From positions 53,072,001 through 53,136,000 of the forward strand of contig NC_135817.1 of assembly GCF_964213995.1 (NCBI RefSeq): a stretch of DNA of 64,000 nucleotides. The letters are read 5' to 3'. Each line of letters opens with the position of its first letter. The stretch's first letter is position 1. Positions 2,031-14,224 of the stretch are shown piece by piece. Both the position numbers and the translations under genes were made by a program. This DNA is from Mustelus asterias (Eukaryota). Under the pieces are notes generated by a model. The model did not search any database and was not told the DNA's origin. It worked only from the letters and a program-made list of their open reading frames with translations.

Positions 2031-3498
2031 ATCTTAGCAGGGGCGGAGGAGTGGGGGGGCGTGGGGGGTGCGCAATGGAAATCCTAGTCGGGGATGGGGC
2101 ACGGCTCATTTCCAACCTCGTGAAGAATCATGATTGAAGCACTCTTGGTTACAATGCACTACTGTTGTAATGTGCAGGACCGCATCAGGCTCCACTTTGA
2201 TGTCCATAATCTCTGTTGTCCAAAGAATCTTCACATGTGTGCGACACTGCAGTCCTGTGAATAACTTGGAACTAGATCTCTCCCATTGCATGAAACAAGG
2301 GGGAGACAAGTTCAGGAAAAATCAATATCAATTGGAAGGAAACTTTTTGCTAATCGAGAGAGCTCAGTAGGTGAGAACCATTTTGCTCAATATTTTAACT
2401 CTTGGGGGGCACAAACCAGGAATATTTAATTCTTGCTGGCTGAGTTATCTGTTTATTTCAACAGTAATTTCAAACAGTGAGCTTGATATGTTTCTCAGAT
2501 CACTCTGAAAAAAGATTGTTTTGTTCTGTCTTGCTTGTGAAATTGTCGGATGAATCATGATTTCAGTGTTTATTAAAGCAATAACAAGTCAGCAAGGATT
2601 GACTCCAGATGCCAATAAATGTTTACATGCAGTGAAAGGATTCTCCATGCATTCTTCGGTATTGTGCTTTGTTATGGTCAAGCAGCAGCTTAGAAAAAGA
2701 GGGAATCAACAGAGTGATACATCAGTGAGCTGTATGGAAATATATGGGTTTCTGACAATCTTTTCATTTAAGATTTCTGCATGTAGTTCTTGTAGAATAA
2801 AATGTGAATTTGATCACAATTAATTCTTTCATGCAAGCATATATATGTACAAAGAACAAAAATAGGCCATTCGGCCCCTCAAGTCTGTTCTGCCATTTCA
2901 TAAGATCATAACTGATTTGATATTGATCTCATATCCGAACCTACCTCCCCCCCCCCCCCCCGATAACCTCTCACCCTCTTGTTTGCCAAGAATCTATCTG
3001 CCTCTGCCTTATTGGATCAATGTCAAATCAATGATGATCTTATGAAATGGCAGAACAGACTTGAGGGGCCGAATGGCCTATTTTTGTTCTTTGTTCATAT
3101 ATATGCTTGTATGAAAGACTTAATTGTAACCAAATGCACATTTTATTCTACAAGGACTACATGCAGAAATCGTAAATGAAAAAATTGTCAGAAACCCATG
3201 TATTTCCATGCCCATGCAGGTCATTCTCCGGTCTCGCTGCTGTTAATGGAGATTTGGCTGAGCATCAAATTCCCCACCCTCGCTGGCAGCGGTAGCAGGG
3301 CAAACGAGACCAGAGAATTATAGCCAGAGTCTTTGAATATTTTTAAGGTGGGATTCCAGCTGGAAGGGTCAGTGCAATTCAATTTGTAATGCACCCACAC
3401 TTGGAAATCCTTTTCGAGCCTGGGGAGATTCTCATTGAATTCTCCCACACTTAGAATTTTTTTTTGGAACGGGGACCTAAAGGTGACCATTAACAACC

Positions 3499-8507: not shown

Positions 8508-9165
8508 CTCTTCCCTAAGGTACCAAGAACTATGATGCCTAAGCAGCTGCAAATGCCTTTGCAATTCCAGCTGGTATGGTGGAACCAGGGGGAGAACCAA
8601 ATGAACTGTGACTTTGGGGCCTGCCATTCCAGCAAAACCTCATGATAAAGGAAGAATTTCAGGAGGCCTAGGACTTTATACGCTTGTAGGATTAGTGCAA
8701 GCGGACTTATTCCCAACTTTGCTATTCCATCTCCTCGCATGTACACACTAAAACAAGATGGCGATTCCTGTGTGGTCTGCACAGCAAGGCATCACCCATA
8801 GATATCTGAATTTTGTATTTGGTATTGGACAATTGGCATAGTACTCTGGTTTATGAGGAACTTTAACATCCATTACAAGTGAATGCTCTGGATTACTAAA
8901 TCTCTCCTGAGCCACTGTGATGTTCAGCATGATTCGAGAAATGGTGGAGATGTAAAGATCACATCTGGTTGTTCAACAAACCTGTCCAAACAGTTATGAT
9001 GTCTTGTATATTACCATGTAAACACTTCTCACTCCACCCGAGAGGCATGCAATCCCCTGTGAGAGAGACCACAATGTGGAGATGCCGGCGTTGGACTGGG
9101 GTGAACACAGTAAGAGTTTTAACAACACCAGGTTAAAGTCCAACAGGTTTATTTGGTAGCAAATA

Positions 9166-9202
9166 CCATTAGCTTTCGGACCGCTGCTCCTTTGTCAGAT
9201 GG
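9166..9202 (-). ncRNA. Mirror copy of the minimal hammerhead motif (left arm)
   Basis: Reverse complement ccatCTGACAAaggagcagcggtccGAAAgcTAatgg. Same G8->A change, plus one helix II mismatch. Confidence 0.65.
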
Positions 9203-11875
9203 AGTGGAAATGTGCACTCAAACAGGGCACAGAGACACAAAAATCAAGTTACAGAATACTGATTAGAATGCGAATCCCTACAGCCAGCCAGATCTTAAAG
9301 ATACAGACAATGTGGGTGAAGGGAGCATTAAGCACAGGTTAAAAAGATGTGTATTGTCTCCAGACAGGACAGCCTGCAAGTCCAGGAGGCAAGCTGTGCG
9401 GGTTACTGATAATGTGACATAAATCCAACATCCCGGTTTAGGCCGTCCTCATGTGTGCGGAACTTGGCTATCAGTTTCGGCTCAGCAACTCTGTGCTGTT
9501 GTGTGTCGTGAAGGCCGCCTTGGAGAACACTTACCTGAAGATCAGAGGCTGAATGCCCGTGACTGCTGAAGTGCTCCCCCACAGGAAGAGAACAGTCTTG
9601 CCTGGTGATTGTCGAGCGGTGTTTATTCATCCGTTGTCATAGCGTCTGCATGGTTTCCCCAATGTACCATGCCTCGGGACATACTTTCCTGCAGCGTATC
9701 AGGTAGACAACGTTGGCCGAGTTGCAAGAGTAGGTACCGTGTACCTGGTAGATGGTGTTCTCACGTGAGATGATGGCATCCATGTCGATGATCCAGCACG
9801 TCTTGCAGAGGTTGCTGTGGCAGGGTTATGTGGTGTCGTGGTCACTGTTCTCCTGAAGGCTGGGTAGTTTGCTGCGGACAATGGTCTGTTTGAGGTTGCG
9901 CGGTTGTTTGAAGGCAAGAAGTGGGGGTGTGGCGATGGCCTTGGCGAGATGTTCGTCTTCATCAATGACATGTTGAAGGCTCCGGAGGAGATGCCGTAGC
10001 TTCTCCACTCCGGGGAAGTACTGGACGACGAAGGGTACTCTGTCCACCGTGTCCCGTGTTTGTCTTCTGAGGAGGTCGGTGCGGTTTTTCGCTGTGGTGC
10101 GTCGGAACTGCTGATCGATGAGTCGAGCGCCATATCCTGTTCTTATGAGGGCATCTTTCAGCGTCTGGAGGTGTCTGTTGCGATCCTCCTCATCCGAGCA
10201 GATCCTGTGTATTTGGAGGGCTTGTCCGTAGGGGATGGCTTCTTTAACATGTTTAGGGTGGAAGCTGGAGAAGTGGAGCATCATGAGGTTATCCGTAGGC
10301 TTGCGGTACAGTGAGGTGCTGAGGTGACCGTCCTTAATGGAGACGCGTGTGTCCAAGAATGCAACCGATTCTGGAGAGTAGTCTATGGTGAGTCTGATGG
10401 TGGGATGGAACTTGTTGATGTCATCATAGAGTTGTTTCAGTGATTGTTCACCATGAGTCCAAAGGAAGAAAATATCATCGATGTATCTAGTGTATAGCAT
10501 CGGTTGAAGGTCCTGTGCGGTGAAGAAGTCTTGTTCGAACAAGACTTCTTCACCGCACAGGACCTTCAACCAATGCTATACACTAGATACATCGATGATA
10601 TTTTCTTCCTTTGGACTCATGGTGAACAATCACTGAAACAACTATATGATGACATCAACAAGTTCCATCCCACCATCAGACTCACCATGGACGACTCTCC
10701 GGAATCGGTTGCATTCTTGGACACACGCATCTCCATTAAGGACGGTCACCTCAGCACCTCACTGTACCGCAAGCCCACGGATAACCTCACGATGCTCCAC
10801 TTCTCCAGCTTCCACCTTAAATACGTTAAAGAAGCCATCCCCTACGGACAAGCCCTCCGAATACACAGGATCTGCTCGGATGAGGAGGATCACAACAGAC
10901 ACCTCCAGACGCTGAAAGATGCCCTCATAAGAACAGGATATGGCGCTCGACTCATCGATCAACAGTTCCGACGCGCCACAGCGAAAAACCGCACCGACCT
11001 CCTCAGAAGACAAACACGGGACACGGTGGACAGAGTACCCTTCGTCGTCCAGTACTTCCCCGGAGCGGAGAAGCTACGGCATCTCCTCTGGAGCCTTCAA
11101 CATGTCATTGATGAAGACGAACATCTCGCCAAGGCCATTCCCACACCCCCACTTCTTGCCTTCAAACAACCGCGCAACCTCAAACAGACCATTGTCCGCA
11201 GCAAACTACCCAGCCTTCAGGAGAACAGTGACCACGACACCACATAACCCTGCTACAGCAACCTCTGCAAGACGTGCCGGATCATCGACACGGATGTCAT
11301 CATCTCACGTGAGAACACCATCTACCAGGTACCTACTCTTGCAACTCGGCCAATGTTGTCTACCTGATACGCTGCAGGAAAGGATGTCCCGAGGCATGGT
11401 ACACTGGGGAAACCATGCAGACGCTACGACAACGGATGAATGAACACCGCTCGACAATCACCAGGCAAGACTGTTCTCTTCCTGTGGGGGAGCACTTCAG
11501 CAGTCACGGGCATTCAGCCTCTGATCTTCAGGTAAGGTTTCTCCAAGGCGGCCTTCACGACACACGACAGCGCAAAGTCGCTGAGCAGAAACTGATAGCC
11601 AAGTTCCGCACACAACAAGTGTCACGTGAGGACGGCCTAAACCGGGATGTTGGATTTATGTCACATTATCAGTAACCCCCACAGCTTGCCTCCTGGACTT
11701 GCAGGCTGTCCTGTCTGGAGACAATACACATCTCTTTAACCTGTGCTTAATGCTCCCTCCACCCACATTGTCTGTATCTTTAAGATCTGGCTGGTTGTAG
11801 GGATTCTCATTCCAATCAGTATTCTGTAACTTGATTTTTGTGTCTCTGTGCCCTGTTTGAGAGCACATTTCCACT

Positions 11876-11912
11876 CCATCTGACAAAGGAGCAGCGCTCC
11901 GAAAGCTAATGG
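11876..11912 (+). ncRNA. Minimal type I hammerhead ribozyme motif of the PLE (G8->A variant)
   Basis: ccat-CTGACAA-a-ggagc(agc)gctcc-GAAA-gc-TA-atgg: helix I, core, helix II, palindromic AGCT in place of helix III. The core reads CUGACAA instead of CUGANGA. Confidence 0.7.
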
Positions 11913-11971
11913 TATTTGCTACCAAATAAACCTGTTGGTCTTTAACCTGGTGTTGTTAAAACTCTTAGAGA

Positions 11972-12160
11972 GACCATAAGACATAGGAGCAGAATTAGGC
12001 CACTCGGACCATTGAGTCTGCTCTGCCATTCAATCATGGCTGATATTTTTCTCATCCCCATTCTCCTGCCTTTTCCCCATAACCCCTGATCCCCTTATTA
12101 ATCAAGAACCTATCTATCTCTGTCTTAAAGACACTCAATGACCTGGCCTCCACAGCCTTC
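11972..12160 (-). mobile_element. CR1 3' UTR fragment abutting the Penelope palindrome
   Basis: cataagacataggagcagaattaggcc...ccattcaatcatggctga. Similar stubs at ~2850-2990, ~22731-22910, ~55850-56000. Confidence 0.78.
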
Positions 12161-13438
12161 TAAAGCTAGGTTTTTAAAAATCAGGTGAGTCAAAAGAATA
12201 AAATATTGAAGATACCTCTCCACCCCCCCCTCCTTCCCCACTTCGAGCAGATCAAAACTAGTCTGGCAGAGAACTCTGGCCAGATTATCGTGATAAAGTA
12301 CCTCCTCCCTGTCATTTCCACCCCAGCCATAAACAGACCCACCTCTTGCTGCAAGGAAGTTAGTGAATCAGCATTCACTGCACTAGCTGTTAGCCTGTTT
12401 CAGAGGTTATTATTCTCTGAGGAAAGAATCACCTTCTGACATTTAACATAGTTTGAGCCTCACTTAACTTGAAACTGCAATTCTTTTTTGGTCCTTCCTA
12501 ACCTATTTAGTTGAAACATACTGTCAATGCAAACGCAGTCTAGTTCTTTTATTGTCAAATAACCTTCAATTAGATCACCCCTCAGTCTGTGTCTCTCTCG
12601 AGTGTCGAGAAATCAAGCTTTTTCCAGCTTACTTCGGTAGCTAAGATACTTTAAAGTGGGAATTAATCACGTGACCTTCTTCTGCACCTTGTTTACAGCC
12701 TTATCATCACTCACCCTTTGAGGAGATCAATGGAGACCTAATCACTAGTATTTTAATGGAAACTTAATTAAAGTCTCACATAAGGATAAAATAGTATGTT
12801 TTGCAGCGTACTGTCCTGTAAATATACCATAGCATCCTGTTCTCCCCAGTTATTTCTTCATGGTTGCGTTCAAGAAACTTCAGTGATTTTTAAAATTTGT
12901 TTATGGGAATGGGCATCGCTGTCTGGGCAAGCATTTATTGCCCATCCCAGAGGGCATTTTAAGAGTCAACCACATTGCACTGGATCTGGAGTCGCATGCA
13001 AGTCAAACCAGGTAAGGATGGCACAGTAGACAATGTCCTTGCACCCAAAAGAACAGCCTCTAATGAAATAATGGAGGTAATTTTCCGACCTCACCGTGCC
13101 TGGTGCAGATCTGGAAAATAGTGTGCAGGCCTAAAACACGGCTTTGTGTCCGGTGCCAAACAGTTTGCAATTGTCCCAGTCCCTTTCTAATGGCACAAAC
13201 CGCAAAATAGCAATTAAACATGCAAAGCCCGTTCGACTCCGGATTCCCCCAGCTCCCAGGATCTTCCAACCTGCAGGCAAGATCAGTGAGAACCACTACC
13301 AGTCTCCATTAGCAGAGACCAGGCATGAAGGACATGCTGGGGGGCTCAGAGGCCACTGAAGCCCTCGGGTGGTTGGGGACATGGCTGGGAAGTGCTCACC
13401 TGGCACCCTGGCAGTGCCAGTTAAGCACTGTCTATGTG

Positions 13439-13667
13439 ATGATGTGGAGATGCCGGCGTTGGACTGGGGTGAACACAGTAAGAAGTTTAACAACACCAGG
13501 TTAAAGTCCAACAGGTTTATTTGGTAGCAAAAGCCACACAAGCTTTCGGAGCTCTAAGCCCCTTCTTCAGGTGAGACTGTAGAAGGGGCTTAGAGCTCCG
13601 AAAGCTTGTGTGGCTTTTGCTACCAAATAAACCTGTTGGACTTTAACCTGGTGTTGTTAAACTTCTT
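13439..13667. mobile_element. Miniature palindromic Penelope-like insertion (3' terminus/pLTR only)
   Basis: Same terminal sequence as 9074-9160. 92-bp perfect inverted arms 13475-13566 / 13581-13672. 12-bp TSD ACTGTCTATGTG at 13427-13438 and 13668-13679. Confidence 0.9.
13537..13573 (-). ncRNA. Minimal type I hammerhead ribozyme with intact core
   Basis: Reverse complement cac-CTGAAGA-a-ggggc(ttaga)gctcc-GAAA-gc-TT-gtg. Canonical CUGANGA and GAAA boxes. Confidence 0.75.
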
Positions 13668-14224
13668 ACTGTCTATGTGCCCAGGGCTGTGCCAAGGGGG
13701 TGGGGCCTGAATCGGGGTGGAGCCTGAGTGGGGGCTATGATGGAGGGGAGGGCTGTGATGTGGGGGGGTGGGGATGTGATTGGGGGGGGGGGGTGTGCAG
13801 GGAGGAGTCTGTGCAGAGAAGGGACTATGACAGGAGTCTGTGCAGAGGGGTGTTCCGTTTGGGGGGGGGGTCTGTGTGGGGGTGGGGGAGTGGGCTTTGT
13901 GCAAGGGGGATCGTGCAGGGTTGCAGCCTGAAGGGGGACATCCCAGGAGTCATGATGGGGGCATGTGTCCCGGGTCATGAGAGGGAACCCAATGGGGAAA
14001 AATGCCGCTTATGAGGGGGGGGTCCCCGATATCTGTGGAGGGACGGAGGAGTTCTTCCAGTGCACTGTGAGATCAGGGTGCCCTTCCAAAGTGGCACCTG
14101 ACCACTCTGCAGCCAGGTTCACCGGCATGTTTAGCACCCCCAACTCCCCCCAAACTCAGTGCTCTCCCAAAAAATGTCTTGAGTGTGGAACGATTGTGGT
14201 CCAAACCGCGCCCAATATCTTTCC

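What the first reader, a model, noticed from the sequence alone, without database searches (positions are those of the whole stretch)
13427..13679. Second, miniature Penelope palindrome with the same architecture and a 12-bp TSD
Seen: a different subfamily (different hammerhead helix II) but the same design. The left arm has the full 3' tail, and the right arm stops at essentially the same nucleotide (...aaacttctt|actgt vs ...aaactctt|a). Arms are 92 bp perfect, extendable to 96 bp with one mismatch and a 6-nt loop. The right junction has 5-nt microhomology (ACTGT) between element and target. Inference: a rule-based two-ended priming mechanism, with one target strand priming at the RNA 3' end and the other at a fixed internal site ~35 nt upstream. 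This yields MITE-like hairpins from a retroelement.
Basis: partly seen in the sequence, partly recalled or inferred. Interest (0 to 1): 0.7.

Follow-up and report, generated by a model that had tools for sequence, protein, structure and literature searches.

The report
Twin-primed Penelope stub, symmetric target
This 253-base mirror-image insert is a one-off stub of a very abundant Penelope-type jumping gene; sampled copies nearly always have one long and one short end and sit in a two-sided DNA signal (CTG, 16-17 bases, CAG), likely because a paired enzyme cuts both strands and each cut end likely starts its own copy of the element's RNA.

Summary
Observation confirmed: 12-bp TSD, 92/96-bp arms, 6-nt loop, 36-nt tail on the left arm only, 5-nt overlap at the right junction. 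It is a 5'-truncated head-to-head insertion of a Neptune/Nematis-type Penelope-like element. This layout and the two RT start sites are published (PMC3846280, PMC8557442, PMC11167929). It is not a MITE family: its centre occurs once in the genome. Inverted-arm ends are not random: 102 of 104 TSD-flanked pairs end within 12 nt of one site, and 24 of 25 pairs found without selecting for the tail are tail/no-tail. Not found in print in my searches: a dyad target CTG-N16/17-CAG around a 12-13-bp TSD, microhomology at both ends, same-source arms of correlated length, and either arm longer equally often. Best model: symmetric nicking, two primings, then end-joining at the centre (0.55). Fold-back is not excluded. 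'RNA 3' end' is unsupported: the tail runs on into the ORF's ATG. The scan had already noted the target motif elsewhere in this genome and twin priming in other genomes; I reached both before looking.

The parts
13427..13438 (.). Left copy of the 12-bp target-site duplication
   Evidence: Exact repeat; 66 of 104 sampled TSDs are 12-13 bp
13439..13474 (-). 36-nt tail, on this arm only; ends in the AT of the element's ORF start codon
   Evidence: in L257 the same tail runs on into an open frame MTTIDTANY...; 56,060 exact genome hits to a tail 29-mer
13475..13575 (-). Tailed arm: 5'-truncated pseudo-LTR, ending 5 nt upstream of the hammerhead core, inside a recurrent truncation zone
13535..13575 (-). 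Minimal type I hammerhead motif (CUGAAGA core, 5-bp helix II, GAAA, palindromic AGCU, short helix I); predicted cut between 13540 and 13539
   Evidence: Read by eye against the min-HHR description in PMC4209133 (core numbering recalled); helix II folds; no Rfam hammerhead match; activity untested
13576..13580 (.). Centre junction, ACTGT: either a 5-nt filler (same letters as the TSD start and the element's internal site) or one extra base plus a core A-to-T change
   Evidence: a 30-mer across the centre occurs once in the genome
13577..13672 (+). Tail-less inverted arm; hammerhead incomplete; last 5 nt shared with the right TSD
13668..13679 (.). Right copy of the TSD; first 5 nt are the microhomology
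13680..13684 (+). Target half-site NN-CAG; the mirror half-site on the left is absent here (TAA at 13422-13424)
   Evidence: family-wide motif

Best explanation
This is a one-off, 5'-truncated head-to-head insertion of a Neptune/Nematis-type Penelope-like retrotransposon, likely built on landing when a paired RT-endonuclease nicked both target strands 12 bp apart and each 3' end likely primed its own cDNA on RNA from one source element. Shown: TSD, tail asymmetry, dyad target motif, end clustering, same-source arms, unique centre. Inferred steps: (1) each protomer nicks 2 nt 5' of CAG, so a dyad CTG-N16/17-CAG leaves 12-13-nt 3' overhangs; (2) one overhang pairs by 0-5 nt with RNA at the ORF start (tail site), the other about 36-41 nt upstream (internal site), one protomer per site, which gives the tail/no-tail rule; (3) both RTs move 5'-ward, the trailing one displacing the first cDNA, and tend to stop at the same block, here just 5' of the hammerhead; (4) the two cDNA ends are joined by microhomology or filler-type end joining. 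The hairpin is a by-product, not a mobile unit.
For: Target: CAG 2-4 nt outside the TSD on the tail side in 62 of 94 distinct targets, on the internal side in 55 of 94, background 5.9% further out; spacing 16 (29 cases) or 17 (14) of 50 CTG/CAG pairs; holds in all three end variants. Pairing: 24 tail/no-tail, 1 no-tail/no-tail, 0 tail/tail of 25 distinct TSD-flanked pairs from 60 loci anchored inside the arm (binomial about 8e-7 at p=0.5, by hand). Overlap with the target: mean 1.92 nt (tail) and 1.33 nt (internal) against null 0.66 and 0.68, above all 5,000 shuffles, n=61. Same source: end variant concordant in 40 of 40 classifiable pairs, null 14.6; 74 of 2,502 diagnostic cells discordant against 31% for random pairs. 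Lengths: within 5 nt in 35 of 104 (null 5.6), rho 0.83; tailed arm longer in 34, tail-less longer in 35. Centres: 40 of 104 with 1-8-nt overlap, 47 of 104 with inserted bases, several copied from nearby sequence (by eye). In vitro, the anole Poseidon protein cleaves and extends both strands, starts RT at two internal sites that bound the tail, and is predicted to be a dimer (PMC11167929, parts 1-2 of 4 read).
Against: No genomic signature separates two RNA-templated primings from fold-back plus second-end capture; equal arm length is also the natural fold-back outcome. Palindromes can be deleted or filled at the centre after insertion, which could erase a first-strand-longer bias and add fillers. 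[quoted passage not shown] This site has only one half-site; only 34 of 94 targets have both. Many copies have no TSD-linked inverted partner within the DNA fetched (39 of 100 and 46 of 89 lacked an exact TSD of 10 bp or more; 19 of these 85 were scored as inverted insertions once one TSD mismatch was allowed, some are simple truncated insertions, 38 stayed unresolved). 11 of 89 pairs are discordant at 3 or more diagnostic sites, which needs a second RNA or gene conversion. Samples are the first hits listed, not random.
Confidence: 0.55

Rival explanations
1. Fold-back: both strands are nicked, but only one primes on RNA. Its cDNA snaps back at a short inverted microhomology and copies itself, and the second target end is captured on that copied strand (or through a short tail cDNA).
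For: Explains same-source arms and equal lengths directly; 40 of 104 centres have 1-8-nt overlap and about 10 fall at an internal quasi-palindrome; overlap at the internal junction is expected as well.
Against: If the tailed strand is first it should never be shorter, yet the tail-less arm is longer in 35 of 104; if the tail-less strand is first, copy-back cannot supply the tail. 47 of 104 centres carry inserted bases, and several equal-armed copies hold 47-656 nt of unrelated DNA exactly at the centre (L051, L097, L148, L163, L178, L182). Both need later rearrangement under this model.
Confidence: 0.27
2. Miniatures such as this one are remnants: a long inverted insertion contracted later by repeated breakage and deletion at the hairpin centre.
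For: Centres look end-joined; sizes run from 103 to 3,478 bp; long palindromes are unstable (established knowledge, recalled).
Against: Arm ends pile up 2-8 nt upstream of the hammerhead core (44 against 12.7 expected, window chosen after seeing the data), which points to an RNA feature; near-perfect palindromes with 600-800-nt arms persist (L003, L063, window 9741-11332). It does not explain the outer-end rule.
Confidence: 0.1
3. Self-priming on an antisense transcript makes the inverted unit before integration (proposal in PMC3846280, Discussion).
For: Gives head-to-head orientation; the antisense strand has a splice-donor-like CAG/GTGAGT near this centre (by eye).
Against: Overlap above chance at both target junctions, at the two sense-RNA sites that match in vitro RT starts (PMC11167929); centres are diverse and mostly not element palindromes; no recurrent spliced partner upstream of the truncation zone.
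Confidence: 0.06
4. A non-autonomous MITE-like hairpin family that is itself copied around the genome.
For: 53 of 104 sampled insertions are 300 bp or shorter.
Against: The centre 30-mer has 1 hit in 3.68 Gb, itself; 105 of 105 centres are distinct.
Confidence: 0.02

Closest known systems
Typical EN+ Penelope-like insertion with inverted pLTR, tail and TSD (Pen2a_Av, PMC3846280, passages and Discussion read; fig. 2 legend of PMC8557442, passages read)
   Same: Head-to-head inverted 5'-truncated copy, 30-40-bp tail at one end, TSD, pLTR overlapping the ORF start.
   Different: Here reduced to the pLTR alone; TSD 12-13 bp rather than the 8-10 bp cited; tail/no-tail pairing nearly obligatory and countable; sequence-specific dyad target.
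Anolis Poseidon PAc in vitro (PMC11167929, parts 1-2 of 4 read; supplements not read)
   Same: Two internal RT start sites bounding the tail; both strands cleaved and extended; predicted dimer; hammerhead in the pLTR.
   Different: PAc prefers AT-rich ATT sites, starts 111-118 nt into the ORF, belongs to Penelope/Poseidon (no CX2-5CxxC linker); the parts read give no model for inverted arms.
Neptune/Nematis clades (PMC8557442, passages)
   Same: C-terminal GIY-YIG with two internal cysteines and an upstream CX4CxxC motif.
   Different: The paper links that linker to microsatellite bias; these copies show a CTG/CAG dyad instead. No tree was built.
L1 twin priming (recalled, not read here)
   Same: Both nicked strands prime on one RNA; cDNAs joined by microhomology.
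   Different: L1 gives an inversion without duplication and a variable internal site; here the same region is present twice and the second site is fixed.
MITEs (recalled)
   Same: Short, non-coding, inverted repeats, TSD.
   Different: Asymmetric ends, unique centres, made by an RT element, no sign of moving as a unit.

Membership tests
EN+ Penelope-like elements | Parent encodes RT followed by a GIY-YIG endonuclease | tested here: met
   L098, same terminus: RVT_1 E 2.5e-11, GIY-YIG E 4.7e-5; the stub itself is non-coding
EN+ Penelope-like elements | pLTR with inverted 5'-truncated copy and 30-40-bp tail at one end | tested here: met
EN+ Penelope-like elements | pLTR and tail overlap the ORF start; partial tandems | tested here: met
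   L257, one example
EN+ Penelope-like elements | Minimal hammerhead motif in the pLTR | tested here: inconclusive
   Motif read by eye on the left arm; Rfam gave no hammerhead match at E up to 1; only helix II folds, z 0.13; cleavage untested
EN+ Penelope-like elements | Target-site duplication | tested here: met
   empty copies of a recurrent target carry the 13-mer once (14 distinct empty copies among 17 hits)
Neptune/Nematis-type PLE | [quoted passage not shown] | tested here: met
   PCHSNLCKTC ... VVYLIRCKKGCPEAWYIG in L077 and L095; linker motif also in L031, L065, L066, L176 and the window neighbour
Neptune clade proper | RT phylogenetic placement | not tested
Neptune clade proper | Microsatellite insertion bias (a described tendency) | tested here: not met
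   Targets are varied sequence with a CTG/CAG dyad; a few simple-repeat TSDs seen (L123, L146)
MITE / non-autonomous mobile hairpin | Many copies of one unit with the same internal structure | tested here: not met

The most novel reading that the evidence does not exclude
This Penelope family is a retroelement that cuts like a dimeric restriction enzyme (nick 2 nt 5' of CAG on each strand, 12-13 bp apart) and integrates by obligatory asymmetric twin priming, copying one RNA twice from two fixed starts, so the long-unexplained inverted pLTR and one-sided tail of Penelope elements are the direct footprint of an RT-endonuclease dimer.
Probability: 0.45. Interest if true: 0.72.

Novelty: new variant of a known kind. 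Interest (0 to 1): 0.5.

Why it matters
How Penelope-like elements make inverted pLTRs and a one-sided tail is stated as unresolved (PMC8557442; PMC11167929). This family supplies tens of thousands of footprints and three testable rules: a defined two-sided target, one tailed and one tail-less end, and same-source arms of correlated length. These give an exact DNA substrate and barcoded-RNA experiment for deciding between twin priming and fold-back. A sequence-specific dyad cutter fused to an RT would also be of interest for insertion tools. The single stub at 13427-13679 is itself ordinary: one copy among very many.

Tried and rejected
DNA similarity search of the genome returned nothing because common words are skipped; patterns were used instead. 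A genome-wide count of all small hairpins was not obtained. Rfam: only miRNA-hairpin and psbA look-alikes below their gathering scores, no hammerhead. Hammerhead-cut RNA as template (suggested in earlier notes e1-8622537, e1-9820663, e1-9583676): no excess of arm ends at the predicted cut in my sample (16 against 16.5 expected; no peak); the background there is inflated by peaks at +5, +10 and +15 that may be alignment artefacts, and 8 ends fall exactly on the cut, so this is inconclusive. Spliced leader at the truncation zone: upstream sequences of the 33 arms listed are not recurrent (mostly one subfamily). Two different RNAs as the rule: rejected; five mosaic pairs in set 1 (L004, L045, L060, L065, L069) differ only near the internal site, but the search pattern selected for that haplotype, so they were not used as support. 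Expression and RNA ends: no RNA holder listed; the runs laid were contigs and show no ends. Earlier findings by sequence: none. Dropped rows: L223 (fetched on the wrong side); 10 of the 100 places listed were not fetched; L005, L009, L014, L026, L029 were replaced by longer fetches of the same sites; 10 targets collapsed as near-duplicates, some too strictly.

Full report
OBSERVATION. The sequence is as described. A 12-bp direct repeat, ACTGTCTATGTG, lies at 13427-13438 and 13668-13679. Between the copies is an inverted repeat, 13475-13570 / 13577-13672, 96 nt with one mismatch and a 6-nt loop; 92 bp are perfect. The left arm has 36 further nt (13439-13474). The last 5 nt of the right arm are also the first 5 of the right TSD. 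The large neighbour (9062-11979) is a related subfamily, 83-89% identical over the shared end, with the same layout and a 13-bp TSD with one mismatch. The left arm holds a complete minimal hammerhead motif on the minus strand (read by eye; description in PMC4209133, passages read); the right arm's copy lacks helix I and has T at a core A. Rfam found no hammerhead.

IDENTITY. Longer copies with this terminus encode RT (RVT_1, E 2.5e-11) and GIY-YIG (E 4.7e-5) (L098) with a CX4CxxC linker, the Neptune/Nematis-type layout of PMC8557442 (passages). The family is very large: 172,902 exact hits to an internal 29-mer, 56,060 to a tail 29-mer, 4,723 to this subfamily's hammerhead 40-mer, 422 to this copy's exact end, in 3.68 Gb. 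In L257 the tail runs on into an open frame beginning MTTIDTANY, so the tail ends at the ORF start codon and is not shown to be an RNA 3' end. A 30-mer across this hairpin's centre has one hit, itself.

SAMPLES. Set 1: the first 100 of 422 hits; 85 had an inverted arm and 61 an exact TSD of 10 bp or more. Set 2: 89 of the first 100 of 56,060 tail hits, all from the start of contig C1; 60 had an inverted arm and 43 such a TSD. Set 3: 60 loci anchored inside the arm, blind to the tail, partly overlapping sets 1-2. None is a random sample. Of the 85 copies in sets 1-2 without an exact TSD, allowing one mismatch gave 19 scored as inverted insertions, 28 candidates without an inverted end (some clear simple truncations, some doubtful, one, L037, tailed at both ends) and 38 unresolved.

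THE END RULE. In the 104 TSD-flanked pairs the tail-less arm ends within 12 nt of one site in 102; tails end within about 10 nt around the ATG. In set 3, 24 of 25 distinct pairs are tail/no-tail, 1 is no-tail/no-tail and none is tail/tail. The end is a window of about 8 nt, not one base. TSDs are 12-13 bp in 66 of 104 and 11-14 bp in 92. Overlap between element and target exceeds chance at both junctions: 1.92 and 1.33 nt against 0.66 and 0.68 (n=61). The 5 nt seen here are high (9 of 104 reach 5).

THE TARGET. Rebuilt empty sites show CAG 2-4 nt outside the TSD on the tail side in 62 of 94 distinct targets and on the internal side in 55 of 94 (both 34, either 83), against 5.9% further out; CTG-to-CAG spacing is 16 or 17 in 43 of 50 pairs; all three end variants show it (first seen). 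With 2 nt outside each cut this equals a 12-13-bp stagger. The site studied here has only the right half-site (13680-13684); the neighbour has CTG-N17-CAT. Five sampled insertions share one site in another repeat, whose empty copies carry the 13-mer once. Four paper searches on target preference, twin priming, dimers and sharks (listings only) showed no such motif for Penelope-like elements; the papers read report AT-rich or microsatellite targets. The library lacks most subscription papers and Repbase.

THE ARMS. Both arms come from one source: 40 of 40 classifiable pairs share the end variant (null 14.6), and 3.0% of diagnostic cells differ against 31% for random pairs; 11 of 89 pairs differ at 3 or more such sites. 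Lengths are coupled (35 of 104 within 5 nt, null 5.6; rho 0.83) and neither arm is favoured (34 against 35). All 105 centres, this one included, are distinct; 40 of 104 have 1-8-nt overlap, 6 are blunt, 47 carry inserted bases and 11 show longer overlap, mostly at an internal quasi-palindrome. Arm ends are enriched 2-8 nt upstream of the hammerhead core (44 against 12.7; window chosen post hoc), where this stub turns; there is no clear excess at the predicted ribozyme cut (16 against 16.5) and no recurrent spliced partner.

MECHANISM. Best model (0.55): a dimer nicks both strands at the dyad; each overhang primes on RNA of one source, one at the tail site and one at the internal site; both cDNAs run towards the same stop; their ends are joined. 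The dyad, the pairing rule, overlap at both ends, the lack of a longer-arm bias and filled centres all fit, as does the in vitro behaviour of anole PAc (both strands extended, two internal starts bounding the tail, predicted dimer; PMC11167929, parts 1-2 of 4). All catalytic steps are inferred. Fold-back with second-end capture (0.27) fits same-source, equal arms equally well and survives if centres are often remodelled later. Later contraction of long palindromes (0.10), antisense self-priming (0.06; PMC3846280 Discussion) and a MITE family (0.02) fit less well.

KNOWN AND NEW. The layout is the 'typical Penelope structure' (PMC3846280: inverted pLTR, 31-bp tail on one end, 9-bp TSD; PMC8557442 fig. 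2), and the tail is already tied to two RT starts. What I did not find in print is the dyad target and the counted pairing, source and length rules. After my analysis I found that this scan's earlier unchecked notes report the same target motif in this genome and twin priming in other genomes; they are not independent support, and my data did not confirm their ribozyme-cut claim. Those notes call the host a likely shark; I did not test that.

VERDICT. Real, not an artefact, one of very many copies of a known element class. Interest 0.5, carried by the family-wide rules rather than by this stub; new variant of a known kind.

Noticed in passing
window 9062-11979: The large Penelope palindrome follows the same rules: tail on the left arm, 13-bp TSD with one mismatch, target CTG-N17-CAT; both arms hold RT and GIY-YIG remnants with stops or frameshifts.
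   Followed up: partly
L257:760-1430: Partial tandem: tail-less inverted pLTR, direct pLTR whose tail runs into the ORF start (76 codons), internal deletion, second tailed pLTR, inside a CTG-N16-CAG target.
   Followed up: partly
L027, L040, L136, L157, L220 (also L073, L160): Independent insertions at the same site of another abundant repeat; 14 distinct empty copies seen. Earlier notes identify it as CR1; not tested here.
   Followed up: partly
L051, L097, L148, L163, L178, L182: Arms equal within 4 nt with 47-656 nt of unrelated DNA exactly at the centre, suggesting capture during end joining or repair of a broken hairpin tip.
   Followed up: no
L001, L018, L027, L056, L082, L100, L152, L166, L199, L218: Centres fall at an internal quasi-palindrome (TGTCT-GG-AGACA) in the element's 3' region, a junction hotspot.
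   Followed up: no
hammerhead helix II of sampled copies: The helix II loop region is highly polymorphic and works as a barcode of source elements; a few insertions have arms with different barcodes (L018, L084, L089, L091, L176, L204).
   Followed up: partly
L037; L117: Exceptions to the pairing rule: one insertion tailed at both ends and one tail-less at both ends.
   Followed up: no
window 2734-3209: Unrelated inverted repeat, 200-nt arms, 93% complementary, 76 nt apart.
   Followed up: no
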